NCBI GenBank assembly: GCA_029856365.1
Contig: JAHQWW010000031.1
Location: 1 to 30,559 of the forward strand
Origin: Candidatus Hodarchaeota archaeon
GTDB taxonomy: Archaea; Asgardarchaeota; Heimdallarchaeia; Hodarchaeales; Hodarchaeaceae
Length of the DNA stretch: 30,559 bases
Direction of reading: 5' to 3'
The notes beneath the pieces were generated by a model, which saw only the letters and a list, made by a program, of their open reading frames with translations, searched no databases and was not told where the DNA came from. The translations under genes were made by a program, and so were the position numbers. Shown here piece after piece: positions 5,146 to 26,812 of this stretch (positions are counted from its first letter, which is position 1; every line of letters begins with the position of its first letter).

Positions 5146-5871
5146 TCAAGGGATTAACTTCATCATTCTCATATAATATGGTCCTGTTAGTGTATAAAAC
5201 AAAAAAAACACGAAAACACCTAAACTTGTCCAGAAATTTGATAAAATGAGAAATATTACTATTGTGATATAACCTATTCCCCGAAGAATTTTGTAGAATG
5301 TAGAGTACGACACATGGGAGGGGTACTTTAAGTGTGTTATCATTAGGAGGCTTATACAAACTATAATAAAGCCAATATGGATTCCCTTGTTAAGAAGAAA
5401 TGTTAGTTCTGGAGGACTAGCTGCGATAAGAACACTCAAAGAACCTATAACCAACGCCGCAATAGAAGCTGGTAAACCTTCAAAATAAATGCCTGTTGGG
5501 TGCCTTACGAAGCGAATGAGCCTATAAATACCGCATACCAAATAAACAAAAGCAATTGGAATATATATTCCTAGTTGCTCATTTGGGTTAATAAAAATCA
5601 AAATAAATGATGGTACTAATACATAGGTGATCGTATCAGCAAAACTGTCAATATATACTCCTATGTTTGAGTGTTGTTTAGTTTTTCTAGCAAAGAATCC
5701 ATCGAAAAAGTCAAATCCAGCTCCAATAATTATCAACCTAAGTGGCCAAAAAATATCTCCGATAATCACGAAGTAGATACCCAGTAATCCCGCCAGACCA
5801 TTTAATCCAGTAAAGATGAAGGAGAGGCCCCTGAAAATCTTATCTTGGTCGCGATAAAGAAAAGAGATCAT
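5146..5871 (-). CDS. pssA: CDP-alcohol phosphatidyltransferase, PssA/archaetidylserine synthase-like
   Basis: DFFDGFFAR...G..IDSFAD signature, with PssA-type RLIRF, FEGLP and LMIT..KYP motifs; polytopic membrane protein. Confidence 0.8.
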   Translation of the reverse strand: MISFLYRDQDKIFRGLSFIFTGLNGLAGLLGIYFVIIGDIFWPLRLIIIGAGFDFFDGFFARKTKQHSNIGVYIDSFADTITYVLVPSFILIFINPNEQLGIYIPIAFVYLVCGIYRLIRFVRHPTGIYFEGLPASIAALVIGSLSVLIAASPPELTFLLNKGIHIGFIIVCISLLMITHLKYPSHVSYSTFYKILRGIGYITIVIFLILSNFWTSLGVFVFFLFYTLTGPYYMRMMKLIP

Positions 5872-6854
5872 GTTTCTTCTTGGTTCCTATAATTAAACTT
5901 AATAAATGAATTTTGGAAATCTAGATTCATATGGATCAATTTGGGATCTTTATTATTAGAATATAAGATAAATTTTTGCGATGGAATTAATAAGCGAGGG
6001 AAAGACAATAGTTTTGGTAAAAAGACAGGATTCAAAGTAGAAATTAATACATTGGTTTGAGGAAGGATACGGAATATTGAAGTGAATATAGATCGAGCTA
6101 TTGATGGATGAACCTTTAAAAGATGATTAAATATAGAAAAATACCGTATTTGACCAGTATGTAACAACAGTGGAAATTTGTTAATTTTTCTACCCTGTAC
6201 TGGATGAATTGGTTGCGTTACTTGAAGAATGCACATTAATCGGTTCCTAAAATAGAAAGAGAACCACACTGGGTAGTTGTCCCAAGAAAGTCGAGGTACC
6301 CAATACTTCTGCTCCTTAAAAACGAAATTCTTCCAGAACTTTGGAGGTGAATGTGATTTTATAATTTTCAGAGGGATAGCTTGTTTTGTTCTTGGGAAAA
6401 AAAAGTAGCGAAAGAGGATGGTTGCTGAAACACTCAGGATAGGATATAATTCTGTTTTTCTGGCAATATTTTGCATTTTAGTATTTTTTGCATTGATTAA
6501 AAAAAGGTTTTGGGCTTCATTAGAAACACATTCCTTCTTAAAATGGGCTGCTATTTGCTTGTAAATCCCTTTATTTTGCCAAGCTGGGTCAACCTTTATG
6601 TTATGAACCCAAAAAAATGGTAAATTGATTGGTTCATTGTTTCTGAAAATTTCTAAGGGATGTGCCCACAGTTGACCAATTATTTCTTTATTCTTACGAG
6701 CTACAACTGTGTGTACCCCTTTTGTTGAAAGCCATTGTTTATATTGGTTACTAGAGATAACAGGAGCAATTCTATTTCGGTAGAGGGAATAATCATTCTG
6801 TAAAAGAGAAGGAATGTCTTCGATTGAAATATTTGATGAAATTTTAACCGTCAT
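5868..6854 (-). CDS. GNAT family N-acetyltransferase
   Basis: Acetyl-CoA-binding motif A (IKVDPAWQNKGI) and a downstream N..M segment. Its stop overlaps the pssA start (ATGA). Confidence 0.7.
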   Translation of the reverse strand: MTVKISSNISIEDIPSLLQNDYSLYRNRIAPVISSNQYKQWLSTKGVHTVVARKNKEIIGQLWAHPLEIFRNNEPINLPFFWVHNIKVDPAWQNKGIYKQIAAHFKKECVSNEAQNLFLINAKNTKMQNIARKTELYPILSVSATILFRYFFFPRTKQAIPLKIIKSHSPPKFWKNFVFKEQKYWVPRLSWDNYPVWFSFYFRNRLMCILQVTQPIHPVQGRKINKFPLLLHTGQIRYFSIFNHLLKVHPSIARSIFTSIFRILPQTNVLISTLNPVFLPKLLSFPRLLIPSQKFILYSNNKDPKLIHMNLDFQNSFIKFNYRNQEET

Positions 6855-8299: not shown

Positions 8300-9079
8300 A
8301 TGATTGAAGCTCAAGATACTCAAATTAGAAATAAAGAACCTAAGGTCGAAAACTCACCTAAATCGAATGAATATACTACAAAAGAATTGAATCCTTCTAA
8401 TAAGAGATTTCATAATGATAGACTCATGATTACGACTCTCTTCCTAGCTTCAGTGATAACATTACTCTTCTATACTGTTCCTGATTGGGTTTTCATAGAG
8501 ATACCCACTCGTGATATTATTCACAATTTGCTGAACCTCCTAGGAATAGAAAACATCCTCATCCCCACTATGGACCCCAACACTGTAGTCCCTGAAGCTT
8601 TACGAGGGGGATCCTTTCCTTTCCTAGAAGCTACAGTCCACACTCCAGGCGTTAGAATTCCATACCCAGACCCCATTCCAAACGGAGATTACTGGATTGT
8701 CAAAGCGTGTACGGGAATGCAAGCAGGAGGATTACTAACTGCTATCATTATTGTAACAGAGGCCCCAAAGATTGCTAAAATTCGGGCTAGTCTTGCATTT
8801 CTTTCTGTACTCTTTATTGGTAATGCTCTAAGGATCACATTCCATTTATGGTGTGTTTATGTTTTAATTATGCAGTTTCAAATGGATCCCAATGAAGCAT
8901 TTTACTGGGCTCATGATGTTTCTACTAAAATTATTGGTTTTTTTGGGACAATTTTGTTTGCCTTCATTATTGAGAGAATCGGGGGTGTTCCAATCATCGA
9001 TCAATTTGCAGATTGGTTAGATTGGATGTGGTGGCGATTGAACTGTATTAAATCAAAATTACAGAGTTTCTTAGGCTAG
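8300..9079 (+). CDS. Exosortase/archaeosortase family membrane transpeptidase
   Basis: Catalytic Cys in IVKACTG, Arg in GNALRI, His in AHD; multiple TM helices; GAGG RBS upstream. Confidence 0.85.
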   Translation: MIEAQDTQIRNKEPKVENSPKSNEYTTKELNPSNKRFHNDRLMITTLFLASVITLLFYTVPDWVFIEIPTRDIIHNLLNLLGIENILIPTMDPNTVVPEALRGGSFPFLEATVHTPGVRIPYPDPIPNGDYWIVKACTGMQAGGLLTAIIIVTEAPKIAKIRASLAFLSVLFIGNALRITFHLWCVYVLIMQFQMDPNEAFYWAHDVSTKIIGFFGTILFAFIIERIGGVPIIDQFADWLDWMWWRLNCIKSKLQSFLG

Positions 9080-9349: not shown

Positions 9350-11425
9350 TTATAATTGATCATTCAAATATTGATCTATTTCTGTTCCAGTTTTCAAAGG
9401 AAGAGAACAAGTAAAGTTTCTACAGATGTATGTGGTACCATTAAACCAGTCTTGATTATCCTGTGAAATAAGCCTTTGTTTGAGGAGGGGAAGGTTCTTT
9501 AAGTCATTAATAGTATTTGCCTTTACTTGGAGAAAAACTGCTTGAGGTAGATATGTGGTACGTAGGTATTTCTCTGTAGAATCTGATTCTTCTTCTGTAC
9601 TAGCTGTGAAAGAAATAATTTCGGTAACTTTATTGTGAAACATATCCAAAGCGATAAGAGTATCACCACTTAAGTAACCATGTTCTTGGAACCAACCGAT
9701 TAAAAAATAAACCTGTTTCTCCGCTCTATCTAAATAAGTATCATTACCTGAATAATGATACAATCGAAGAAGATTCTCAAGGCTTACTGCGTTTGCACTA
9801 GGAAGTGAAAAAGATATTACTGGTTTTTCTTGGACAGATAAATCCTTTTGCCAGCTCCCACTAAAGAAATACCCTTTATTTTCTGAATCCCAGAATTCCT
9901 TGTCATAAATGGCTTGCAGCTGGATTGCTTCATCTAGGTAGATTTTCTTTCCAGATCTTGAGAATAGCTCTAATAGTGCATATATCAATAGAGCATAATC
10001 TTCAGCAAAAGCCAAAGACTTTACTTTATCCCGAAAATTGCGATATAATTTTCCTGAATCTTCTCGCAACCGATTAAGAATGAAATTGGTGGCTTTTTCG
10101 GCTAGAACTAAATACATGGGTTCATTTAATATGAAGGAGGCTCTGGTTAACGCATGTATGGTCAATGCATTCCAAGCAACGATCATGTTGTCATTCAACA
10201 TTGGTTTTTTACGTTTTTCCCGATGTAAAAACAGCCTATGCTTCAGTTGTTTGACTTCATTCCAGGTTATTTCCTTTCCAATAGCAGAAGTTAGCTCAGA
10301 TGTTTCATGGAGAACAGAATATCCACCTTCAAAGTTACCATCTCTCGTTACTCCATAATATTCAGCAAATTTATCTCCCATATCACCCAGAATATTATTG
10401 ATTTCATGTGGCGTCCAAACAAAAAAACTCCCCTCAACTCCCTCTGAATCAGCATCTTGAGACGAATAAAACCCTCCATACAGCGGATGAACCATTTCAC
10501 GAGTAAGATATTCAATGATTTCTCGAGCTATTTCAGCATAACCTTGATTTTGTGTCGCTTGATAAGCTTCTAAATATAGTAGAATCAGTTGTGCATTATC
10601 ATAGAGCATTTTCTCGAAATGAGGAATTAACCATTTCCGATCAACTGAATACCTGTGAAAACCGTAACCTAAGTGGTCATAAATCCCTCCAGCTGCCATA
10701 TTATTAAGAGTTAAGGTAACAGGTTTAAGGAACTCGCGATTTTTTTGGCGACGATAATAGGAAAGAAGTAAGAAACGAAGATCACTAACCTGAGGAAATT
10801 TCGGTTGGAAACCAAATCCCCCAAAGATTTCATCGACTTCATCTATTAATCGGATCATTGATGAATCAAGGATGTCACTTAACATTGAAGTATCGTTAGT
10901 ACCTTGCACAGAAGATTGAGTGTTTAGATTTGAGAGAACATGTTGAGTTACTTCTTGAATCTGTCGAGGGTTCTTGTGATATTCACTTGAAACATATTGA
11001 ATGACTTGTTTAAAACTTGGAAGACCATAAGTGGCATTTTTAGGAAAATAAGTTCCTCCTGCAAAAGCTTCCCCTGTAGGAGTAGCAAAAACGGTTAAAG
11101 GCCAGCCAGCTCTCCCCGATAAAAGAGAAACTGCTTTCTGGTAAAATGAGTCTAGATCAGGTCGTTCTTCTCTATCTATTTTGATATTAATGAATAATTC
11201 ATTCATTAACGCTGCGGTCTCTGAATCTTCGAATGATTCCTTTTCCATAACATGACACCAATGACATGCCGCGTATCCTATTGAAAGTAGTAATGGTTTT
11301 TTTTCTTGTTTTGCTTTAACCAATCCCTTTTTCCAAGGATACCACTCCACTGGATTATGCATGTGCTGCAGCAGGTACGGACTGGTTTCATTTACTAAAT
11401 GATTGGTGCGTTTTTTATTCCCCAT
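9350..11425 (-). CDS. Thioredoxin-domain protein, YyaL/SPATA20 family
   Basis: [67 protein letters not shown] and C.NFTCSLP. Confidence 0.95.
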
Positions 11426-14566: not shown

Positions 14567-14773
14567 ATACGAAGTCTCACATAGTCTCTATAAAATTCTT
14601 TCCTAAAGAAAACCAGTCTGATATAAAATCAGCTAGTAAAAAACATGGAGTACTCCTATGCATCCCAAATCATAGTCTTTTTAAAAATATTAAACAGAGT
14701 TTGTGACTATTACAAGCATAATTTTCCAGTTTCTGATATCAATGTCGTTTTATTTCCATGTTTTAAGGTGAAA

Positions 14774-15742
14774 ATGATGAGTGATGAAGCATATGTTAGA
14801 AAGTTTGGTTTTCGCTCCTTTGAGGGCACTCTTCGAGGAAGAGTATGGCGTGTATGGGCAGTAGCTTGGTTCAACATGACCCATCAATGGCATCGTTCAC
14901 GAGTTTTTAAAATACTCATTTTTTTCACTATTTTTATCTTAATCATTCCCAATATGTTTCTTTTTGTTGGAATAGACGAGTTATTAAATACAAGGACAGC
15001 AAATGAGATTTTAGAGGATCATTTATGGAATACCGTCCGTGATTTCGCCCGATTCCAAGTTATGATAACCTCTCCCGATGAAACAGACCCTACATTTGAT
15101 ACTGGGTACTCAATTATCATGTTAATAGGCGTTATCATGATGGGAGCGGGATTACTCTCAGATGATTTGAAATACAAAGTTTCTGAGATCTATGACTCAA
15201 AAATAGATAGATCTGAATATTTGTTAGGAAAATATAGCTCGCTCCTTATTTTTGGAAATCTTTTCTATACTTTTCCATGTGCTTTAGAATGGAGTTTGTT
15301 AGTTGTAGGAATTAGTGGTGCTGTTGACATTGTTGCAGCTCTTCCAGTACTTTGTGGAGTAATTATATTTACTGAGATTTTATCGTTGGTTCTCTCAAGT
15401 ATTATTCTTGTATTTTCTTCTCTTACCCAACGACGATTATATGCAGGACTTCTCGCATTTATGTTTTTCCTATCCAGTACAATTGTTGTTCAATCACTTA
15501 CTGGACAAACAGAAGTTTTTGAGCCAATTATGTATTTAGATTTCTTCACCGTTCTCTCTGTTTTTTCTTACATATTAGCTGGAAAAACTAGCGTTATCTA
15601 TTACTCTTCTGGACCAGAAGGAATAGTTCTTGATCTCAATGGAATAGCTGGAACGTTTGTTATCCCTGCAATCATATTATTTATTGTGGGAGGGCTTCTG
15701 ATATGCAGTTATCAAGTAATATGGCGAAATTCCCACATATGA
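14774..15742 (+). CDS. ABC-2-type transporter permease-like membrane protein (no ATPase adjacent)
   Basis: GAGLLSDDL...IYDSKIDRSEYLLGK motif and about 6 TM helices. Start placed at ATGATG 14774, after AGGTGA, rather than 14645. Confidence 0.75.
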   Translation: MMSDEAYVRKFGFRSFEGTLRGRVWRVWAVAWFNMTHQWHRSRVFKILIFFTIFILIIPNMFLFVGIDELLNTRTANEILEDHLWNTVRDFARFQVMITSPDETDPTFDTGYSIIMLIGVIMMGAGLLSDDLKYKVSEIYDSKIDRSEYLLGKYSSLLIFGNLFYTFPCALEWSLLVVGISGAVDIVAALPVLCGVIIFTEILSLVLSSIILVFSSLTQRRLYAGLLAFMFFLSSTIVVQSLTGQTEVFEPIMYLDFFTVLSVFSYILAGKTSVIYYSSGPEGIVLDLNGIAGTFVIPAIILFIVGGLLICSYQVIWRNSHI

Positions 15743-18236: not shown

Positions 18237-20279
18237 CTACAATTCGATTTCTGCCCAAAGGGCAGGGTGATCTGACTCTTTACTCACAATATAATAACAA
18301 TCGGATATTATTATTCCAGGTGATACAAAAATGTGATCTATCCTTTCATTCACATTATATTGTATGTCATCTATGTATTCTACATCTGTAGATTCAGCAA
18401 TAAGCCAAGAGTCATTTAGAGTACCGATTGTTAGATTATATTGGGGCTCACTTGGATCGAAATTGAAGTCTCCCATTAATATCACCTTATTTTTGCTATT
18501 CACCTCTCCAATTATGGCCTCTTGTTGCACAAGGGGCCCACCGTTGCCAAGATGTGTCACAAATACATTAAATAGAGTTGTACCAAATTGGATCTGTGCT
18601 TCAATAGTAGCTGTCTGCTCCCCTTTACTATACATGAAAAAAGTTCTCGGATTTTGAATAGGGTATTTAGAAAGCAACGCGATCCCGAAAGTTCCTGTAC
18701 CTGTTTTTGGGCCATAATAGGAAAGCATTTTCAGGTTATTTGCGAAATACCTAACGACATCCATATTTCCATTAGCAATCCTGGTTGTATCACATTCCTG
18801 TAATCCAATAATATCAGGATTAATTGTTCTTATTATATTTAATTGCCCATCAAGGTTTTTGATACCATCTTCACTATATCCTTGCTGAATATTATAAGTC
18901 ATAACTGTTATAGAAGTTGTTGTTTCAGGAGTTGTAGGTATGGGGGTAGTTATAAATACACTCAAGATCGTTCCTATCGCAATAACTACTATTACTATCG
19001 AGATTACTCTAGATTGTAATCCGATCACGGGCTTTTTGAACATAAATACACTCTTTTTCACTAGCAATACAGGTAAGGCAACACTCAATCCTACTATTAA
19101 GTACACAAACCAAAACATATCTCTGAAAAGAGGGCCAATAATGTCAATATAATCGTATACTGTAGTAAACACATGTGCAAAAATCATTATTAGGAAAAAT
19201 AATGATGCGAGAGTAAAACCTCCTGATAACTTACCCATTGTAGGTTTACCATTGATTAATTCTCGGGAAATGAGGGTAAAATCAATTAAGATTATTGGAA
19301 AAAGGACTATCATTAATATTAATGGTATATAATGCAGTATCGTTGTCGGAGGAGCGTCAATTGGATAACTATTGGCAGACAATGGAAATTGTATCTGATT
19401 AAGAATAATTGTCAATACTAAAGTAATGATGAATAGCGCATTCCCAAGCCAAATCATCCAAGGCTCCAATTTCATCAATAAATCACGTTTGAATGTCATA
19501 AAAAGGACAAAAAGGGTAATTATAAGGATGACTAAAAGAATAATAAAGAAATAATCTCCCTCGGTCCATCTAGAAATAACAGTGGGGCTTGCAAAGGAAA
19601 AATAAATCATCATTAAAATGCCAATCAATCCAAAAGTGAGACAAATTGTTTTCAAAGTGTTGTTGGATCGCTCTAGACTTGTTGAGACGTCAATATCTGT
19701 TTTCTGCTCTGTTGTAACCATACCAATAATCAAGATAGCTGCGATTACTGCCAAAATCCAACCAATCAATTGAAACCAGCTGTAGGTGGAAATATCAATT
19801 GTCGAACCCAACGTTCTGAAAAGGATTGACAATGCAAGAGCAATCGCTAATCCTAATCCTAATGTTAGTCCACTATTCTCCTCATTATGCTTGGATTTGT
19901 GGTGAAGAAACATTGGAAGAAATATTAAAAAACATCCAACACCAATACCAGATATAATCATCTTAATTTGAGGAATACCAACTAACAGCGCTTCCAGTAC
20001 TCTACAAACAATCAATAATTCTCCGACAACGACCAGTAGTTTATCAGGGGAATTCTTTCGAAAAAAAACTAGAATAATAGGAGATAGCAAAAAAAGAACA
20101 CTAAGAACATTTTCATTCAAAGACAAGGTGAGAAGACAAAGCGCGTATATTGCCTCTATAAAATCGGAGATTAGTTCAAAGAAAAATAAGAAGATTATAC
20201 TCAATAATATTAATTCTGAATAATATTGTTTCACTTTTTTTTTCAGCGATTGGGCGTTTAACATGACATTCACAAGCAT
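18237..20279 (-). CDS. Polytopic membrane protein with C-terminal endonuclease/exonuclease/phosphatase domain (Cwh43/PGAP2IP-like), paralogue 1
   Basis: About 450 aa of TM helices, then MTYNI, GLQECD, LLSKYPI, THL, GDFN, RIDHIF and SDHPAL. Confidence 0.88.
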   Translation of the reverse strand: MLVNVMLNAQSLKKKVKQYYSELILLSIIFLFFFELISDFIEAIYALCLLTLSLNENVLSVLFLLSPIILVFFRKNSPDKLLVVVGELLIVCRVLEALLVGIPQIKMIISGIGVGCFLIFLPMFLHHKSKHNEENSGLTLGLGLAIALALSILFRTLGSTIDISTYSWFQLIGWILAVIAAILIIGMVTTEQKTDIDVSTSLERSNNTLKTICLTFGLIGILMMIYFSFASPTVISRWTEGDYFFIILLVILIITLFVLFMTFKRDLLMKLEPWMIWLGNALFIITLVLTIILNQIQFPLSANSYPIDAPPTTILHYIPLILMIVLFPIILIDFTLISRELINGKPTMGKLSGGFTLASLFFLIMIFAHVFTTVYDYIDIIGPLFRDMFWFVYLIVGLSVALPVLLVKKSVFMFKKPVIGLQSRVISIVIVVIAIGTILSVFITTPIPTTPETTTSITVMTYNIQQGYSEDGIKNLDGQLNIIRTINPDIIGLQECDTTRIANGNMDVVRYFANNLKMLSYYGPKTGTGTFGIALLSKYPIQNPRTFFMYSKGEQTATIEAQIQFGTTLFNVFVTHLGNGGPLVQQEAIIGEVNSKNKVILMGDFNFDPSEPQYNLTIGTLNDSWLIAESTDVEYIDDIQYNVNERIDHIFVSPGIIISDCYYIVSKESDHPALWAEIEL

Positions 20280-20370
20280 TTTTTGGGTTTAAAAAAGTTT
20301 TCATGAAAAATATCGGGAATATAAAGCCTATAGAAGCCCAATCAATTTCAGGGAGACTACTATTGGGAGT

Positions 20371-21237
20371 TTATTTGCTAATCCAGGAGATAACATATTG
20401 TAAATGTCCTGGGGTGGTAATTTCGGGCCGGATAAATTGCCAGCTTCCTTTAAGACCTCGTTCTAGAGCAGTTAAGTTAAAGTGACAGACAGCAATTCCT
20501 AGATCTAATCTGGGAAAGTCAGGCCATGAGAGAAGGCTACTATACCAACTTCTTTTCCGAAAAATGAAAAAATGGAAGTTTTTACTATCTTTTATTACCC
20601 GCCAAGGTTGGCGATTAGACGCTGAGGGGGCAATTCGAATCATTTCTAGCGGTATATCGTATCTACCTGCCCTCTCTCGAGTAAGTGGGTACTTACAATC
20701 TCCTTCAAAGAAAAGGTTCTCCCATGGGTGACGTTTTTTAGAACGAGCTGCCCAACGCGCAAGTCTATCAACTTTGCTACGATTTTCTGCTGCGTATCCT
20801 ACAGGAGTAATGGCTGGAACGGCTTCATTATCTGTAATGTTGTTAATTTGAGCTGCAAATTTGCTGCGCTTGAAAGTGCCCCCTACCCAACAAGTCCCTA
20901 AACCTAAATCGGTCGCAAATAAAATCAGCTCCTCCATAACGTAACCAAAATTTTCCAGATCATATTTAGATTTCTTTGTTGCTCCAACAATGAAATTTTT
21001 GGCCCCTTGGATGAAACCGTAAGTTCCAAGTTGCCTCTTCACTTTTGGATCTAATTCCTGGATTTGTAACAATTCAAACCGTGTTCCACAATTGAAAGGG
21101 CTTTTATGGTCTGCTTGGAGAAATTTAATCAAATTCCTCTTAGTATTATCATGAAGTGATTCTGTCTTATATGTTCGACACGAATATCGTCGTTGAATGA
21201 TTTCTATAATTGAAGTGGAGAACTTTAATCTATTCAT
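20371..21237 (-). CDS. Nitroreductase family protein (two-domain)
   Basis: RRYSCRTY, LGLGTCWVGG, APSASNRQPWR, DLGIAVCHF. Start placed at ATG 21237. Confidence 0.9.
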   Translation of the reverse strand: MNRLKFSTSIIEIIQRRYSCRTYKTESLHDNTKRNLIKFLQADHKSPFNCGTRFELLQIQELDPKVKRQLGTYGFIQGAKNFIVGATKKSKYDLENFGYVMEELILFATDLGLGTCWVGGTFKRSKFAAQINNITDNEAVPAITPVGYAAENRSKVDRLARWAARSKKRHPWENLFFEGDCKYPLTRERAGRYDIPLEMIRIAPSASNRQPWRVIKDSKNFHFFIFRKRSWYSSLLSWPDFPRLDLGIAVCHFNLTALERGLKGSWQFIRPEITTPGHLQYVISWISK

Positions 21238-21265
21238 CCTACAAATCTTCTTTCTTAGAGTTTTT

Positions 21266-23194
21266 CTATCCAACAACTAGTTCAGCATAAACTGCGCGAT
21301 GATCAGAGGTTCTTGTTGATCCAAAAGTTACACATTTAAGTACAATCCACGACCCTTTCAACCAAATGTAATCTATTCTGTTTGTGGCAATCCCAGAACT
21401 TGAATAAGAAGTACCACCATTGGAAGCATTTCCAGCCAGTATCCAAGCGTCTGAAAAAGTAGAGTTTAAAAGCTCGAATGTTGGATCTGTGATTTCTTGA
21501 TGAGTGTTAAAATCACCCAGAATGACTGTGCTAGTATAATCTTTTGTAATATCGATAATTTTAACTGCTTGATTATACCGATCAAAATTATATCTATTCG
21601 TTTGAAAATGAGTTGTAATAATAGGTAATTTTCCTGCGATCTTGCCAGTATCAATTTCTACAACAATTACTACCCGTTCGATTGATTGTTCCGCTGGTAA
21701 GTCTTCATAATGAGCATTTAAAATAGGAAATCTGGATATAAGAGAGACACCATAAATTTGAGCAGAGGTTGGTGGACCGTAATAGTAATTCATTCCTGTC
21801 TGATGAGCAAGCCATTGCACACCATTCATATTTGATGATGTTATTCTGGCACCTTCTGATTCTTGCAATCCAATTACATCTACTCCAGATTCTAATATAA
21901 CATCCCGTACCTGTTCGAGGTTGTAGAGTCCTGTTTGTCCAATTGAAAAGTACTGATGAATATTGAAAGTCATTATCCTGAGTTTACTTGAGTCAGGGCT
22001 CTTTCTTACCATAAGAAGATCATTAGTTATGACTCCTACCGTCGAAACTACAACTACAACCAAAAAGATTATTCGAACGGTATTTAAGACATTTTGAAGT
22101 TTTCTAGTCGTAATTGTGGGCATATCAAGCTTCAAACTAGTTAAGGGGAGAAATAATCCTGCTATAAATATTATTGTTGCAGCATGACCGCGAGTAAAGG
22201 CTAAAAATGAAGGCATAAAAGCCCAATTACCCGCACTGACGTTTAAGAGCAGGATGAATACCATTAAAAATTGGATAACAGTCATTCGGAGTCCGATAAC
22301 CCTAGGCGATTTTATCGTGATCTTACTTAAACCAGCATAAAGGATGACGCATACTGAAACCTGTGCAGAGAAATAAGTAATAATAGGAAGAAGATTAATC
22401 CAGAGAAGATCTATTAAAGACAATAGATAAAGAAACATCCATCCTAGTACAAGCTTATCCTTGAGGATCTGTTTCCCTCTTTCAAAAGATAAACACGCGC
22501 CAAATGATAGACCAATGATTCCAGTAAAAGAAATAAGTAAGTAATCCCTTAGGAACCATGTCGATACAACATTGGGAAAACCCAAAAATAATAACTGAAT
22601 AAGAAGGAAACTAATAACTGGGGATACATCAGTAAACGTTGTTTGAGAGGAATCTATTAATCTAGCATCATTTTTGACTCTTGTAAACCAAAGTAGAATA
22701 CCTAGACCTATCCAGAGAAGGAATAATATTGATCCAATCAATGTAGCATAATAAGAAGCTGTATCAAGCCACGAGCGTGTAATTACCAGAATGAATATCG
22801 CTAGTATCACACTGATAGTAAATTCTTCATTTTCAATCTGAATTCTATTTACCAGCATTGGAGTAATGAACATCATAGCTAGAATAGTTGCAAGTGTAGC
22901 TATCATTGTGATTGGAATAAAGCTCATAAGAACCATGATTGTTGCACTGACGAGACTTATTGACAGCGCTCTTACTGAATGGGGCGAAGGTAATATCACT
23001 TCAACTAAACCTGTCAGTAACAATACAATTAATAGAATAGATTCATTTGGTCCAGCAGTAGAAAAGTTTAGCACAAAGATCATTGTTAAAAAGCGTTCTA
23101 ACTGACTAAAAAATAAAAAAACTACTAGTGCTCCAAAAACTAGTCGGTTGATGTAGTTAAAATAATCTTGAGGGGGAGTGATATTATTTTCCAC
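21266..23194 (-). CDS. Polytopic membrane protein with C-terminal EEP domain (Cwh43/PGAP2IP-like), paralogue 2
   Basis: About 400 aa TM region, then MTFNI, GLQESE, LISRFPI, THF, GDFN, RIDYIW and SDHRAV. Confidence 0.88.
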   Translation of the reverse strand: MENNITPPQDYFNYINRLVFGALVVFLFFSQLERFLTMIFVLNFSTAGPNESILLIVLLLTGLVEVILPSPHSVRALSISLVSATIMVLMSFIPITMIATLATILAMMFITPMLVNRIQIENEEFTISVILAIFILVITRSWLDTASYYATLIGSILFLLWIGLGILLWFTRVKNDARLIDSSQTTFTDVSPVISFLLIQLLFLGFPNVVSTWFLRDYLLISFTGIIGLSFGACLSFERGKQILKDKLVLGWMFLYLLSLIDLLWINLLPIITYFSAQVSVCVILYAGLSKITIKSPRVIGLRMTVIQFLMVFILLLNVSAGNWAFMPSFLAFTRGHAATIIFIAGLFLPLTSLKLDMPTITTRKLQNVLNTVRIIFLVVVVVSTVGVITNDLLMVRKSPDSSKLRIMTFNIHQYFSIGQTGLYNLEQVRDVILESGVDVIGLQESEGARITSSNMNGVQWLAHQTGMNYYYGPPTSAQIYGVSLISRFPILNAHYEDLPAEQSIERVVIVVEIDTGKIAGKLPIITTHFQTNRYNFDRYNQAVKIIDITKDYTSTVILGDFNTHQEITDPTFELLNSTFSDAWILAGNASNGGTSYSSSGIATNRIDYIWLKGSWIVLKCVTFGSTRTSDHRAVYAELVVG

Positions 23195-24215: not shown

Positions 24216-24749
24216 TTAAGTTTTCATTGTAGTCTCTGTTGAATCTGAGCTCCCATCTGAAGTTAGATCTTCAAATAAATCTCTTATTCTAACTATCCGA
24301 CCACAGATAGTTCCAGAATATGCTGGAAGAGAGAATAGAAAATAAAAGAAGACAAAAACAATGTCAAAATGATTGTAAAGACGCCAGCAAAGAATGAAGA
24401 TAATAATAAACGAACCAAAGAAAAAAATTTGAAAAAATGTTCTAATAACACCTAGATATAACCAATGTCGTTTTAGGAAAGGTTCGTGGAACTGGTAATA
24501 AAGATATTCACCCATCGTAAAGAAAAATATAGTGAGACCAGATATACAGCTCCCGATAAAAATACGAAAAGAAAGCCATAGTAAATCATTGGGATATTCT
24601 AAGATGAAACCAAAACTCCAATAAACTACTCCAATGATCATGCAGCAGAATCCTACTAGAGTTATTTGCTTAGCGACGTGAGTTTCAGCACGATCACCTT
24701 TCTTCTCTTGTAGAATCCTTTTGATATCTTCTTTTGTCATAAAATCCAT
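24216..24749 (-). CDS. Hypothetical membrane protein (about 4 TM helices)
   Basis: 177-aa ORF with four hydrophobic stretches; no recognised motif. Confidence 0.65.
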   Translation of the reverse strand: MDFMTKEDIKRILQEKKGDRAETHVAKQITLVGFCCMIIGVVYWSFGFILEYPNDLLWLSFRIFIGSCISGLTIFFFTMGEYLYYQFHEPFLKRHWLYLGVIRTFFQIFFFGSFIIIFILCWRLYNHFDIVFVFFYFLFSLPAYSGTICGRIVRIRDLFEDLTSDGSSDSTETTMKT

Positions 24750-25111: not shown

Positions 25112-26812
25112 TTAATAAGTTCCCTGTGTATAATCGCTCCGGAGTTGGGTAAGCATGGGAACATACAATATCGGTACCCAGTCTTTCGGAGCGGGTCGCC
25201 AACGGCCGATTACAGCCTTAACTTCTTCTCCTTCAGCAAAATTACAGATTTTAGGGTTGTAATTAAAGCCCCTGACCCACTTTTGATCAAACATAACCCA
25301 GTAGGGGTTCTCAGGATGACCAGAGGACTTCTTTGAAGGTGCAAAGAAGTGTACTTCTTTGATTCGGGCTCGTTTAGGGATCTTTACCGTTTTTAATTTC
25401 GTTCCACAAATTCTTTTGGCATCCCCAGCTGCCTTCTGTATTCCACGTAAACAACGCCCTTCTAATTCACTAAATTTCTCTGGTGGGGAAAAATCTGGAA
25501 AGTTACTTTTGGTCCAACTGTCCCCAAAGTACACAGCACCACATTCTGGACAACCTTCAACTTGATAATATTCTTTTGATAGGGGATTAACATCTAACAA
25601 TGCGATATGTTTAGCAACTTGATCTGGAGTATCACGAAAACGGAAATAATCTTCTACGGAAATTTGCTGCTTATAATCAATCTGTTCTTGAACAGTTGGA
25701 ACTGCATTGTTTGCTACCTGAGACCCATTTGCCTTCAATTTAATACTGAAGACATCTGAACCCGCACCTGAACCGTAAAGAACTGCCAAAATCTCCTCAC
25801 CGCGTTTTGCAGTTTCCATTGCAGCGCACAACGCAGTTGGAACGGTTGCGGAATAGCCATTAGCGATGATAGGTGCTAAATTCGACACTTTAACTCTAGG
25901 CTCAATACCGAGTATATTTCCATCTTTATCAAACATTTTTTCAGCTAAAGTAACCCCAAAATAATTACCAATATCTAATAATGCTTCATTAGGAAAACTA
26001 CCATTGGGAGAATGAATCACCCAGGTCTTTCCTGGAAGACATTCAGCATTCATTTCAGGATAACGCTCTATATGCTTCTTTAATGTTGAAAGGATCATCC
26101 CTCGGAAAGCTAATGATGTCCCTTGACCCTCATGCTCAGGAAATTCTTCCCCCTCTTTCCTAATGAAATCTGAAAAATCATAATTGATTGACGTACGTCC
26201 AACAATCTTCGCAATCCCCTTTTCTTTACCTAAAATTATGCTAGTCGAGTAAAAAGAGGCAGAAAACTCAAGATCATCTCCAGGAGCACCTTGACTGGCA
26301 TCTGTTGCTGTTACTGCAACATACCGACATCTCCCAGAATCAATAAGTGCAGCTCCAATATCAAGAAATTCACCGAAGGGTTTACAGGCGAATTCACCAC
26401 GAACACCATATTTAAGGTCTGTTAAACCTGCTTTTCCAGCAATAGCTGTGCTTGATTTCACAGCATAGGGGTATGACTCTGAAACAACAAATAAGGCATC
26501 AATCTGATTAGGTTTGATACCTGCACGCCGTATAGCATAAATTAGTGATTGAGTCCCTGCAGTCAATGCATCCTCATTAGGACCAGGAACAACCTTTTCT
26601 ATAAGCTGTAAACGCTGACTGTACACCCAGCGGACACTACGTAAAGTTTTTCCCCGAAAACGGCTGACAGCTCTTTTAAGTTGTCGTAAGGCGACTTTAT
26701 AATTGAGAGTGGACATAGAATGATAGCTATCTACGAGGTCTTGGATCGTGAGCCTATTTTGGGGAATGAACGAAGCTATCGCCTTTATGTCCGCCAATTT
26801 TTCAAACAACAC
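25112..26812 (-). CDS. Archaeal-type HMG-CoA synthase-like protein fused to a C-terminal DUF35 (Zn-ribbon/OB-fold) domain
   Basis: EDALT, SESYPYAVK (Glu), EFACK (Cys), QGAPGDDLEF, HSPNGSFP (His), NGYSA and YGSGAGSD; C-terminus GCPECGAVYF...C...CG...PY...GEEVKAV..R...ILY. Confidence 0.85.
   Translation of the reverse strand: MLFEKLADIKAIASFIPQNRLTIQDLVDSYHSMSTLNYKVALRQLKRAVSRFRGKTLRSVRWVYSQRLQLIEKVVPGPNEDALTAGTQSLIYAIRRAGIKPNQIDALFVVSESYPYAVKSSTAIAGKAGLTDLKYGVRGEFACKPFGEFLDIGAALIDSGRCRYVAVTATDASQGAPGDDLEFSASFYSTSIILGKEKGIAKIVGRTSINYDFSDFIRKEGEEFPEHEGQGTSLAFRGMILSTLKKHIERYPEMNAECLPGKTWVIHSPNGSFPNEALLDIGNYFGVTLAEKMFDKDGNILGIEPRVKVSNLAPIIANGYSATVPTALCAAMETAKRGEEILAVLYGSGAGSDVFSIKLKANGSQVANNAVPTVQEQIDYKQQISVEDYFRFRDTPDQVAKHIALLDVNPLSKEYYQVEGCPECGAVYFGDSWTKSNFPDFSPPEKFSELEGRCLRGIQKAAGDAKRICGTKLKTVKIPKRARIKEVHFFAPSKKSSGHPENPYWVMFDQKWVRGFNYNPKICNFAEGEEVKAVIGRWRPAPKDWVPILYVPMLTQLRSDYTQGTY

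What the first reader, a model, noticed from the sequence alone, without database searches (positions are those of the whole stretch)
18237..23194. Two Cwh43/PGAP2IP-like membrane EEP paralogues (GPI lipid-remodeller-like) flanking a nitroreductase
Seen: two co-oriented genes, each with a long multi-TM region and an EEP domain retaining intact N, E, GDFN, D and SDH catalytic residues. Knowledge, from recall: the segments GLQECDTTRIANGNMDVVRYFANNLKMLSYYGPKTGTGTFGIALLSKYPI and GLQESEGARITSSNMNGVQWLAHQTGMNYYYGPPTSAQIYGVSLISRFPI match the pattern GL.E.D..RI..GN.D....LA..L.M....GP......WG...LSKFPI of fungal Cwh43, which exchanges the lipid moiety of GPI anchors. The TM+EEP architecture is also shared. 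Inference: these are membrane phospholipid or lipid-anchor phosphodiesterases/transferases, possibly prokaryotic relatives of the eukaryotic remodeller. Similar proteins also occur in bacteria, so an archaeal-eukaryotic sister relationship is not established.
Basis: partly seen in the sequence, partly recalled or inferred. Interest (0 to 1): 0.75.

Follow-up and report, generated by a model that had tools for sequence, protein, structure and literature searches.

The report
Two Asgard PGAP2IP-like membrane phosphodiesterases
Two neighbouring genes of an Asgard archaeon each encode a transporter-shaped 13-helix membrane protein with an outward-facing, apparently active phosphodiesterase; they are true whole-length but side-branch relatives of the eukaryotic GPI-anchor lipid remodeller PGAP2IP/Cwh43, and their substrate is unknown.

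Summary
Genes at 18237-20279 (680 aa) and 21266-23194 (642 aa), both on the minus strand, flank a TM1586-type nitroreductase. Each has a long membrane region plus a C-terminal EEP domain with the full canonical catalytic set.

The link to Cwh43/PGAP2IP is real and spans the whole length.
- Both EEP domains pass Pfam's PGAP2IP-specific model.
- Both membrane regions align to eukaryotic PGAP2IP/Cwh43 by profile-profile comparison (98.4% and 95.6% probability). Shuffled controls score far lower.

New here: the 12-helix membrane domain has the major-facilitator (MFS) fold (Z 19.2). A 13th helix places the EEP domain outside the cell.

The window's proteins are not the closest archaeal relatives of the eukaryotic enzyme.
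- A well-supported split, backed by an AU test, puts them in a prokaryotic half shared with Chloroflexota and Halobacteria.
- A different Heimdallarchaeia subgroup, not found in this genome, matches all three PGAP2IP Pfam models and lies on the eukaryotic side.
- Main-clade eukaryotic proteins have lost four canonical catalytic residues; all prokaryotic ones keep them.
- No GPI-pathway markers were found.

Most likely function: an outward-facing phosphodiesterase acting on a membrane-bound substrate. The scan has already reported this family on at least ten other genomes.

The parts
18237..20279 (-). P0001: 680-aa PGAP2IP-like membrane phosphodiesterase of the Asgard/Chloroflexota subfamily. 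Orthologues start at the second Met, residue 6.
   Evidence: ORF. Best relatives are Hodarchaeota/Heimdallarchaeota proteins at 70-82% identity and Anaerolineales at about 48%, full length. AF2 model pLDDT 91.6, pTM 0.92.
19062..20222 (-). P0001 residues 20-406: 12-helix (6+6) MFS-fold membrane domain. Conserved residues on the outer face are R155, R237-W238, Y377 and R386.
   Evidence: VIA-align wide search of the TM-only model: the top 50 hits are all MFS transporters, Z 19.2 to 13.2, with 313-377 residues aligned. Foldseek top hits are also all MFS, E 2e-4. hhalign against the eukaryotic PGAP2IP/Cwh43 membrane region gives 98.4%, E 4.6e-15. The best genome-wide PF23021 hit lies at 19062-19223.
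18948..19019 (-). P0001 residues 421-444: 13th transmembrane helix, which carries the chain back to the outside.
   Evidence: AF2 helix 421-444. K+R count is 16 in the inside loops against 2 in the outside loops.
18240..18914 (-). P0001 residues 456-680: extracytoplasmic EEP phosphodiesterase domain with the full catalytic set.
   Evidence: PF23226 83 bits, PF03372 73.6 bits. Foldseek matches EEP structures 3teb and 4ruw, human neutral sphingomyelinase 8j2f and mannosyl-6-phosphatase 4c1r at E about 1e-8. Catalytic columns are intact.
20371..21276 (-). TM1586-type nitroreductase between the two genes. Its real start is probably the ATG at residue 14. It is probably not a functional partner.
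   Evidence: PF14512 2e-36. Present in relative L015, but reduced to a 97-aa C-terminal remnant in L014.
21266..23194 (-). P0002: 642-aa PGAP2IP-like membrane phosphodiesterase of a narrow Hodarchaeales/Halobacteria subfamily.
   Evidence: ORF. Only 25 relatives were found, mostly Hodarchaeales, with Halorarius at 29% identity. Full-length BLASTP to the Heimdallarchaeia bridging protein P0160 gives 26% identity, 4e-31.
22004..23152 (-). P0002 residues about 15-397: membrane domain homologous to that of P0001 and of PGAP2IP.
   Evidence: hhalign against the eukaryotic alignment: 95.6%, E 1.3e-8, 330 columns. Against the P0001-type: 97.3%, E 1.6e-11. Controls.
21269..21985 (-). P0002 residues about 404-642: EEP domain with the full catalytic set.
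   Evidence: PF23226 64.6 bits, PF03372 55.8 bits. Catalytic columns are intact.

Best explanation
P0001 and P0002 are two deeply diverged paralogues of the prokaryotic branch of the PGAP2IP/Cwh43 superfamily.

Architecture (shown):
- a cytoplasmic N-terminus;
- a 12-helix domain with the major-facilitator fold (6+6);
- a 13th helix;
- an extracytoplasmic EEP domain that keeps every canonical residue of a metal-dependent phosphodiesterase.

Mechanism (inferred):
- The transporter-shaped domain does not work as an ordinary solute carrier. It holds a membrane-embedded, phosphate-bearing amphiphile from the outer leaflet, such as a polar lipid head group or a lipid-linked glycan.
- It does so through the conserved outer-face residues R155, R237-W238 and R386, and presents the substrate's phosphodiester to the EEP site docked above it.
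- The EEP site then cleaves the bond hydrolytically. This would be either sphingomyelinase/phospholipase-C-like or removal of a phospho-alcohol substituent.

The two tandem genes probably handle different substrates or act together.

They are relatives of the eukaryotic GPI lipid remodeller, not its orthologues. Nothing indicates that they act on GPI.
For: Whole-length homology to PGAP2IP/Cwh43:
- PF23226 over its cut-off in both proteins.
- TM-only profiles against eukaryotic PGAP2IP/Cwh43: 98.4% (E 4.6e-15, 344 columns) and 95.6% (E 1.3e-8). Column-shuffled controls score 10-19 and reversed 20-27, against real scores of 110 and 66.
- Direct BLASTP to chytrid Cwh43 starts inside the membrane region: 2e-19 from residue 357 of P0001, 2e-13 from residue 301 of P0002.
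- End-to-end BLASTP to Heimdallarchaeia proteins that themselves pass all three PGAP2IP Pfam models.
- Across 61 genomes of the class, sub-threshold PF23021 hits fall repeatedly inside the PF23226 gene, just upstream of the EEP domain.

Fold and topology:
- AF2 pLDDT 91.6, pTM 0.92, 13 helices plus EEP.
- The TM-only model matches only MFS transporters among the top 50 hits (Z 19.2-13.2). Foldseek agrees.
- K+R is 16 inside against 2 outside.

Active site:
- N463, E495, H576, D604, N606, D648, D670 and H671 are invariant or nearly so in all prokaryotic members.
- The EEP model resembles neutral sphingomyelinases and a mannosyl-6-phosphatase.
- The published EEP cluster that contains an 'Asgard/Chloroflexus group' also contains characterised metal-dependent GlcNAc-6-phosphodiesterases (PMC10704324).

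Conservation:
- R155, R237, W238 and R386 are kept in both eukaryotes and prokaryotes, and lie in outer loops or at outer helix ends.
Against: - No substrate, activity or bound ligand is known for any prokaryotic member.
The proximity of the conserved outer-face residues to the EEP site is inferred from topology, not measured.
- Gene neighbourhoods give no functional clue: neighbours differ in the Chloroflexota, Helarchaeota and Halorarius relatives.
- An MFS fold is also compatible with genuine transport.
- The P0001-type is shared at about 48% identity between archaea (ether lipids) and Chloroflexota (ester lipids). Any lipid substrate would therefore have to be recognised by its head group, or be a polyprenyl-phosphate-linked molecule.
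Confidence: 0.6

Rival explanations
1. Coupled scavenging machine. The outward EEP domain hydrolyses a soluble extracellular phosphodiester, such as a glycerophosphodiester, a nucleic acid end or a phospho-sugar. The MFS domain is a true transporter that imports the product.
For: The membrane domain has a clear MFS fold. Organophosphate carriers are MFS members (established knowledge). One metagenomic relative, P0175, is annotated by JGI as 'EEP hydrolase/MFS family permease'.
Against: No Pfam MFS model matches the membrane region, even at E 10. The TM2-TM3 and TM8-TM9 loops, read directly, lack MFS motif A. Conserved residues cluster on the outer face next to the EEP domain rather than mid-membrane. 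The same membrane domain is conserved in eukaryotic PGAP2IP/Cwh43, which act on a lipid anchor in the ER (established knowledge).
Confidence: 0.15
2. Glycan-editing phosphodiesterase. Like the characterised GlcNAc-6-phosphodiesterases of the same EEP cluster, the enzyme removes phosphoethanolamine, phosphocholine or a similar group from surface or lipid-linked glycans. The membrane domain would serve mainly as anchor and substrate guide.
For: The published CLANS analysis places an 'Asgard/Chloroflexus group' in the GlcNAc-PDase cluster. Characterised cluster members are metal-dependent and sugar-specific (PMC10704324). Structural similarity to mannosyl-6-phosphatase Bt3783.
Against: The characterised enzymes are short, soluble and secreted. 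The authors themselves note that the Asgard/Chloroflexus group differs in size and organisation, and they did not test it. A strongly conserved 12-helix domain with invariant arginines is more than an anchor needs.
Confidence: 0.15
3. True functional equivalent of Cwh43. The proteins would exchange the lipid moiety of a GPI-like protein or glycan anchor by transphosphatidylation.
For: Whole-length homology to Cwh43/PGAP2IP. Three PIG-L-family deacetylases are present in the genome. A CDP-alcohol phosphatidyltransferase lies in the window at 5146-5871.
Against: GWT1, PIG-M and the C13 (GPI8-type) peptidase were not found, and Frag1/PGAP2 gave no convincing hit, in a genome that is 83.6% complete. 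PIG-L family members are common in prokaryotes without GPI (controls). The proteins sit on the non-eukaryotic side of the tree. Their active site is the hydrolase type, while main-clade eukaryotic proteins changed four catalytic residues.
Confidence: 0.07
4. Membrane-anchored extracellular nuclease or AP-endonuclease-like enzyme.
For: Weak NCBIfam hits to exodeoxyribonuclease III (about 20-24 bits, far below the cut-offs). Tdp2 and LINE-1 endonuclease appear among the Foldseek hits.
Against: The hits lie far below the family thresholds. The best Pfam match is the PGAP2IP-specific model. The top structural neighbours include lipid and sugar phosphodiesterases. A conserved MFS-like domain has no obvious role for a nuclease.
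Confidence: 0.03

Closest known systems
Mammalian PGAP2-interacting protein (PGAP2IP, gene CWH43) and the C-terminal two-thirds of fungal Cwh43. Pfam architecture: PF23022 6TM_1st, PF23021 6TM_2nd, PF23226 EEP.
   Same: Same overall length (about 640-700 aa) and the same order of parts: 12 helices, a linker helix, then the EEP domain. Homology spans the whole length. The membrane-domain residues R155, R237, W238 and R386 are conserved, as are the EEP residues E495, H576 and D670.
   Different: The window proteins do not reach Pfam's cut-offs for the two membrane models: 14.8 bits for P0001, none for P0002. They keep the canonical N, D-x-N and His that main-clade eukaryotes have replaced (N to T/A/P, with a few members keeping N; GDFN to GYxT; SDH to SDT/SDS). 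They lie in the other half of the family tree. They have no fused or separate Frag1/PGAP2 partner and no GPI pathway around them.
Heimdallarchaeia PGAP2IP-type subgroup (P0158, P0159, P0161-P0166), found here in other genomes of the same class.
   Same: Archaeal, same architecture, canonical catalytic residues. BLASTP aligns end to end with P0001 (25% identity, 1e-34).
   Different: P0158 and P0159 pass all three PGAP2IP Pfam models (42, 83-107 and 109-111 bits). The subgroup's members score higher against eukaryotic proteins than against P0001 and sit on the eukaryotic side of the 97-supported split. No member was found in the window's genome.
'Asgard/Chloroflexus group' of the GlcNAc-6-phosphodiesterase EEP cluster (J Biol Chem 2023, PMC10704324).
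   Same: By its taxon make-up, and by its linkage to Cwh43p and PGAP2IP in the same cluster, this is most likely the P0001-type subfamily. The characterised neighbours are metal-dependent phosphodiesterases.
   Different: The paper did not test this group and did not analyse its membrane domain. I could not compare sequences directly, so the identity of the group is inferred.
Major facilitator superfamily lipid handlers (LtaA flippase, Spns1, LplT-type lysolipid transporters).
   Same: 12-helix 6+6 fold. LtaA (Z 13.8) and Spns1 with bound lysolipid (Z 16.6) are among the matches. Both are MFS proteins that accommodate amphiphiles.
   Different: No sequence-level MFS membership and no motif A. 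Here the domain is fused to an enzyme through an extra helix. Transport is not shown.
Neutral sphingomyelinases and bacterial sphingomyelinase C (EEP lipid phosphodiesterases).
   Same: Same catalytic fold and residue set. Foldseek E 1e-8 to 1e-6 against 8j2f, 5uvg and 2ddt.
   Different: These enzymes are soluble or peripherally anchored and have no MFS-like domain. Similarity is at superfamily level only.

Membership tests
PGAP2IP/Cwh43 C-terminal family (Pfam PF23022 + PF23021 + PF23226) | C-terminal EEP domain matching PF23226 above the gathering score | tested here: met
   83 bits (P0001) and 64.6 bits (P0002) against a cut-off of 27. Both score better than on the generic PF03372 model.
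PGAP2IP/Cwh43 C-terminal family (Pfam PF23022 + PF23021 + PF23226) | Second 6-TM domain (PF23021) above the gathering score | tested here: not met
   P0001 scores 14.8 bits (cut-off 27), although this is colinear and the best hit in the genome. P0002 gives no hit. Homology of the region is nevertheless shown by hhalign (control in 109).
PGAP2IP/Cwh43 C-terminal family (Pfam PF23022 + PF23021 + PF23226) | First 6-TM domain (PF23022) above the gathering score | tested here: not met
   No hit in the genome at E 10. The hhalign alignment does cover this region, from query residue 20 to template residue 5 onward.
PGAP2IP/Cwh43 C-terminal family (Pfam PF23022 + PF23021 + PF23226) | Placement with the eukaryotic proteins in a family tree | tested here: not met
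   A split with SH-aLRT 97 separates the P0001-, P0160- and P0002-types from the eukaryotes plus the Heimdallarchaeia P0158-type. The AU test rejects P0001-type plus eukaryotes as one clade (delta lnL 132.9, p 3e-14, LG+F+G4).
PGAP2IP/Cwh43 C-terminal family (Pfam PF23022 + PF23021 + PF23226) | Eukaryote-type modified EEP site (GYxT and SDT in place of GDFN and SDH) | tested here: not met
   P0001 and P0002 have D604, N606 and H671. All 23 main-clade eukaryotic sequences have Y, T/V/S and T/S at these columns.
PGAP2IP/Cwh43 C-terminal family (Pfam PF23022 + PF23021 + PF23226) | Works within a GPI-anchor pathway, with a PGAP2/Frag1 partner | tested here: not met
   GWT1, PIG-M and C13 peptidase gave no hit; for GWT1 and PIG-M the tool's control genomes also gave no hit, so these two searches are weak evidence of absence. 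The best Frag1 hit is 11.2 bits, on another contig. The genome is 83.6% complete, so absence is not proven.
PGAP2IP/Cwh43 C-terminal family (Pfam PF23022 + PF23021 + PF23226) | GPI lipid (ceramide) remodelling activity | not testable with these tools
   Needs biochemistry or yeast complementation.
Endonuclease/exonuclease/phosphatase superfamily (PF03372) | EEP fold with the catalytic N, E, H, D-x-N, D and D-H residues | tested here: met
   PF03372 at 73.6 and 55.8 bits. Foldseek probability 1.00 to many EEP structures. All catalytic columns are intact.
Major facilitator superfamily | 12-helix 6+6 MFS fold | tested here: met
   Z 19.2 (355 residues aligned, rmsd 4.6) down to 13.2, with all 50 top entries being MFS. 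Foldseek top hits are all MFS, E 2e-4 to 4e-3.
Major facilitator superfamily | Sequence membership (Pfam MFS models, motif A) | tested here: not met
   No MFS family at E up to 10. The TM2-TM3 and TM8-TM9 loops show no G-x-x-x-D-R/K-x-G-R-R/K motif when read directly.
GlcNAc-6-phosphodiesterase group (PMC10704324) | Soluble secreted EEP enzyme that removes PC/PE from GlcNAc-6-P | not tested
   No reference sequence was available to compare. The paper places an Asgard/Chloroflexus group in the same cluster but calls it divergent and did not assay it.

The most novel reading that the evidence does not exclude
The conserved tandem pair is an outward-facing lipid-exchange system. One or both enzymes would use the MFS-like cavity to swap or trim the lipid or head group of a membrane-anchored glycan or protein anchor that is not GPI. 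This would be the ancestral activity from which eukaryotes derived Cwh43-type anchor remodelling, after modifying the hydrolase site into a transferase-like one.
Probability: 0.1. Interest if true: 0.85.

Novelty: new variant of a known kind. Interest (0 to 1): 0.5.

Why it matters
PGAP2IP/Cwh43 is a poorly understood eukaryotic membrane protein. It is needed for ceramide remodelling of GPI anchors in yeast, and the human gene is linked to hydrocephalus. The role of its EEP domain is described as 'still vague' (PMC10704324).

The prokaryotic relatives could help in several ways:
- They show that the membrane part has the major-facilitator fold.
- They show that the ancestral enzyme was an ordinary metal-dependent phosphodiesterase facing the outside.
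- They show that the main eukaryotic lineage rewired four catalytic residues.

These enzymes are intron-free and keep the canonical catalytic residues, so they are tractable models for the family's chemistry. A haloarchaeal relative of the second gene may be open to genetics.

For eukaryogenesis, the relevant Asgard proteins are a different subgroup, not the two in this window. That limits the weight of this particular locus.

Tried and rejected
- Pfam scan of the membrane regions alone at E up to 10 gave nothing useful.
- The PDB sequence search gave only weak EEP hits, E 0.05-0.07.
- A 'longer proteins' search meant to catch fungal Cwh43 returned only prokaryotic fusions. Eukaryotic sequences were reached instead through the Heimdallarchaeia bridging protein P0158.
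- My first hydropathy script produced overlapping segments and was discarded in favour of the AF2 helices.
- The treekit AU test under the mixture model did not finish in three runs. I ran the AU test on its two saved trees under LG+F+G4 instead, so that result rests on a simpler model.
- Gene neighbourhoods of relatives in Chloroflexota, Helarchaeota and Halorarius showed no shared partner.
- I considered the nitroreductase as a partner and rejected it, because it is a decayed fragment in one relative.
- The wider 'lipid-anchoring neighbourhood' idea was not pursued. The CDP-alcohol transferase at 5146-5871 is real. The putative archaeosortase at 8300-9079 gave no Pfam hit. Both are more than 7 kb away, behind unrelated genes, and were not seen next to the pair in the stretches of L014 and L015 that I examined.
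- No complex prediction was run. The two full proteins exceed the size limit, and I make no binding claim.

Full report
**What is there.** The window comes from an Asgard archaeon. The best relatives of the first protein are Hodarchaeota/Heimdallarchaeota MAG proteins at 70-82% identity. The assembly has 204 contigs and is 83.6% complete.

Three genes lie head to tail on the minus strand:
- P0002, 21266-23194, 642 aa, GTG start;
- a nitroreductase, 20371-21276, PF14512 at 2e-36;
- P0001, 18237-20279, 680 aa.

Both C-termini match Pfam's PGAP2IP-specific EEP model PF23226 (83 and 64.6 bits, cut-off 27), slightly better than the generic EEP model. The surrounding genes are unrelated housekeeping genes: HIT, a DNA methylase and NUDIX on one side, and Fpg on the other.

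**Are the two genes paralogues?** BLASTP aligns only the EEP domains (28% identity, 7e-25). Profile-profile comparison of the two membrane regions gives 97.3% probability (E 1.6e-11, 357 columns). So they are paralogues, but the duplication is old.

- P0001 belongs to a large subfamily: more than 688 clusters, spread across Asgard lineages and, at about 48% identity over the full length, Anaerolineales bacteria.
- P0002 belongs to a narrow subfamily of Hodarchaeales plus a few others, including the haloarchaeon Halorarius at 29% identity.

The tandem arrangement is kept in relatives at about 60% identity (L014, L015). In L014 the nitroreductase is reduced to a 97-aa remnant, 58% identical to its C-terminal end. 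The nitroreductase is therefore dispensable, while the pair persists.

Directly, Pfam's two membrane models do not reach threshold. PF23022 gives nothing. PF23021 gives 14.8 bits in P0001, although this is the best hit in the genome and sits colinearly just before the EEP domain.

I then searched 61 genomes of the same class.
- Two genomes carry proteins that pass all three PGAP2IP models in the right order. These are P0158 (663 aa) and P0159 (630 aa), at 42, 83-107 and 109-111 bits.
- A third protein, P0160, is intermediate.
- About ten further sub-threshold PF23021 hits all fall inside the PF23226 gene, immediately upstream of the EEP domain.

These genes sit among ordinary prokaryotic or Asgard neighbours, such as NadA, an AMP-phosphorylase-like gene and an Arf/Ras-type GTPase. 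They are intron-free, so they are not eukaryotic contamination.

BLASTP links everything end to end:
- P0001 to P0160: 29% identity, 8e-55;
- P0001 to P0158: 25%, 1e-34, from residue 6;
- P0002 to P0160: 26%, 4e-31;
- P0158 to P0160: 29%, 4e-56.

Using P0158 as query, I recovered named eukaryotic proteins: rabbit/hare PGAP2IP, chytrid Cwh43, and sequences from Chlorokybus, an amoebozoan, Cyanophora and Achlya. P0001 and P0002 align directly to the chytrid Cwh43 from inside the membrane region through the EEP domain (2e-19 and 2e-13).

TM-only profiles of the two window subfamilies align to the eukaryotic alignment over 344 and 330 columns, at 98.4% (E 4.6e-15) and 95.6% (E 1.3e-8). With the eukaryotic columns shuffled (15 trials) or reversed, scores fall from 110 and 66 to 10-27. 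Composition therefore does not explain the match. The membrane domains are homologous.

**Fold and topology.** AlphaFold2 with an 81-sequence alignment gives a confident model of P0001: pLDDT 91.6, pTM 0.92. It has thirteen transmembrane helices followed by the EEP domain at residues 456-680.

A separate model of residues 1-452 (pLDDT 86.2) was compared with about 48,000 PDB representatives. All 50 top entries are major-facilitator transporters, from Z 19.2 (VAChT, 355 residues aligned) down to 13.2. They include the lipid handlers Spns1 and LtaA. Foldseek independently lists only MFS proteins at the top (E 2e-4). Pfam's '6TM_1st' and '6TM_2nd' therefore correspond to the two lobes of an MFS fold. 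I found no paper in the held library that links PGAP2IP to MFS.

There is no sequence-level MFS membership and no motif A.

Loops assigned to the inside hold 16 Lys+Arg, against 2 in the outside loops. The N-terminus is therefore cytoplasmic, and the odd 13th helix puts the EEP domain outside. This matches the luminal orientation accepted for Cwh43 (established knowledge). Most conserved membrane-domain residues lie in outer loops or at outer helix ends, on the same side as the EEP domain. Examples are the SRW motif at 236-238, the YDYI...FRD motif at 375-387, and R155.

**Active site.** The EEP model resembles uncharacterised bacterial EEPs, human neutral sphingomyelinase, a Bacteroides mannosyl-6-phosphatase and Tdp2.

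In an alignment of 68 family members, every prokaryotic sequence with a complete domain keeps N463, E495, H576, D604, N606, D648, D670 and H671. This includes P0001, P0002 and the P0158-type. The only exceptions are a few metagenomic outliers.

All 23 sequences of the main eukaryotic clade differ:
- mostly T, A or P at 463 (four keep N);
- Y at 604;
- T, V or S at 606;
- T or S at 671.

They retain E495, H576 and D670. The BLASTP alignments and the eukaryotic consensus show the same changes.

The membrane-domain residues R155, R237, W238 and R386 are conserved on both sides. The prokaryotic proteins therefore look like working hydrolases, while the eukaryotic EEP site has been rewired. This fits the published remark that the role of the Cwh43/PGAP2IP EEP domain is unclear (PMC10704324).

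**Phylogeny.** A FastTree of 159 sequences and an IQ-TREE 'quick' tree of 68 (LG+C20+F+G4 PMSF, 642 columns) agree. A branch with SH-aLRT 97 separates two groups:
- the P0001-type (Asgard plus Chloroflexota), the P0160-type and the P0002-type (Hodarchaeales plus Halobacteria);
- the main eukaryotic clade (support 100), the Heimdallarchaeia P0158-type (support 90), and a mixed set that includes Cyanophora and Achlya.

Forcing P0001-type plus eukaryotes into one clade costs 132.9 log-likelihood units and is rejected (p-AU 3e-14). That test used LG+F+G4, because the mixture-model test did not finish.

The relationship between the P0158-type and eukaryotes is not resolved (support 82, open), and the tree is unrooted. 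Several branches are long, so the finer placements should be read with care.

The window's genome has only the two PF23226 genes and no P0158-type.

**Function.** The genome gives no sign of a GPI pathway. GWT1, PIG-M and the C13 (GPI8-type) peptidase gave no hit, and Frag1 gave only 11 bits elsewhere. For GWT1 and PIG-M nothing rang in the control genomes either, so those two absences are weak. The three PIG-L-family genes are uninformative, because that family is common in prokaryotes. Relatives in other phyla have no shared neighbours.

My preferred reading is an outward-facing, metal-dependent phosphodiesterase whose MFS-like domain binds a membrane-embedded, phosphate-bearing substrate and presents it to the EEP site. 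Archaea and Chloroflexota share the P0001-type at about 48% identity. The substrate is therefore probably recognised by its head group, or is a polyprenyl-phosphate-linked molecule.

- Shown: the architecture, fold, topology, intact catalytic residues and homology.
- Inferred: the substrate class and the cooperation of the two domains.

The rivals are a coupled hydrolase-transporter, a glycan phospho-substituent remover like the characterised GlcNAc-6-phosphodiesterases of the same EEP cluster, a true GPI-like remodeller, and a nuclease.

**Novelty.** Three things limit it:
- NCBI annotates these proteins only as generic EEP family proteins, and the precomputed Pfam lists already carry PF23226.
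- A 2023 paper noticed an 'Asgard/Chloroflexus group' clustering with Cwh43p and PGAP2IP, but did not analyse or assay it.
- This scan has already reported the family on at least ten other genomes, with follow-ups that reached the same conclusions: MFS-like fold, outward EEP, side branch, no GPI pathway, and a rarer Asgard subgroup closer to eukaryotes. I reached these conclusions before that look-up, but they are not independent discoveries.

What this locus adds is the conserved tandem of two deeply diverged subfamily members in Hodarchaeales. I rate it a new variant of a known kind, of moderate interest.

Noticed in passing
L006:2757-4748 (-) and L007:2416-4308 (+), genomes G050 and G037 of the same class: Heimdallarchaeia proteins of 663 and 630 aa pass all three PGAP2IP Pfam models. 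They are the closest prokaryotic relatives of eukaryotic PGAP2IP/Cwh43 seen here. None is present in the window's genome.
   Followed up: yes
Alignment columns of P0001 residues 463, 604, 606 and 671: Main-clade eukaryotic PGAP2IP/Cwh43 (23 sequences) have replaced four canonical EEP catalytic residues (GDFN to GYxT, SDH to SDT/SDS, and the first Asn mostly to T/A/P). Cyanophora and Achlya homologues outside that clade keep most of them.
   Followed up: partly
L014:8929-9222: In a relative, the nitroreductase between the two EEP genes is reduced to a 97-aa C-terminal remnant, 58% identical to residues 213-301 of the window's protein.
   Followed up: yes
window 20265-20279: P0001's annotated ATG lies five codons upstream of the Met at which close orthologues begin. 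The real start may be residue 6.
   Followed up: no
window 21237-21276: The nitroreductase ORF as listed starts at a TTG that overlaps the end of P0002 by 11 nt. An ATG 13 codons downstream, before the Pfam match begins, is a more likely start.
   Followed up: no
proteins P0151-P0153: Longer fused forms exist elsewhere: a 926-aa protein carrying PF16491 (CAAX protease N-terminal helices) with the EEP domain, and Clostridia proteins of about 1,550-1,600 aa combining PASTA and SLH domains with a PF23226-type EEP.
   Followed up: no
window 5146-5871 (-) and 5868-6854 (-): A CDP-alcohol phosphatidyltransferase (PF01066, 51 bits) overlaps by 4 nt a GNAT-family gene with an unassigned C-terminal half. 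The ORF at 8300-9079, read elsewhere as an archaeosortase, gave no Pfam hit at 1e-3.
   Followed up: partly
window 14645-15742 (+), 24216-24749 (-), 25112-26812 (-): Three ORFs of 365, 177 and 566 aa have no Pfam match at 1e-3.
   Followed up: no
window 9350-11425 (-): A 691-aa protein with an N-terminal DUF255/thioredoxin-like domain (224 bits) and weak six-hairpin glycosidase/epimerase-like matches.
   Followed up: no
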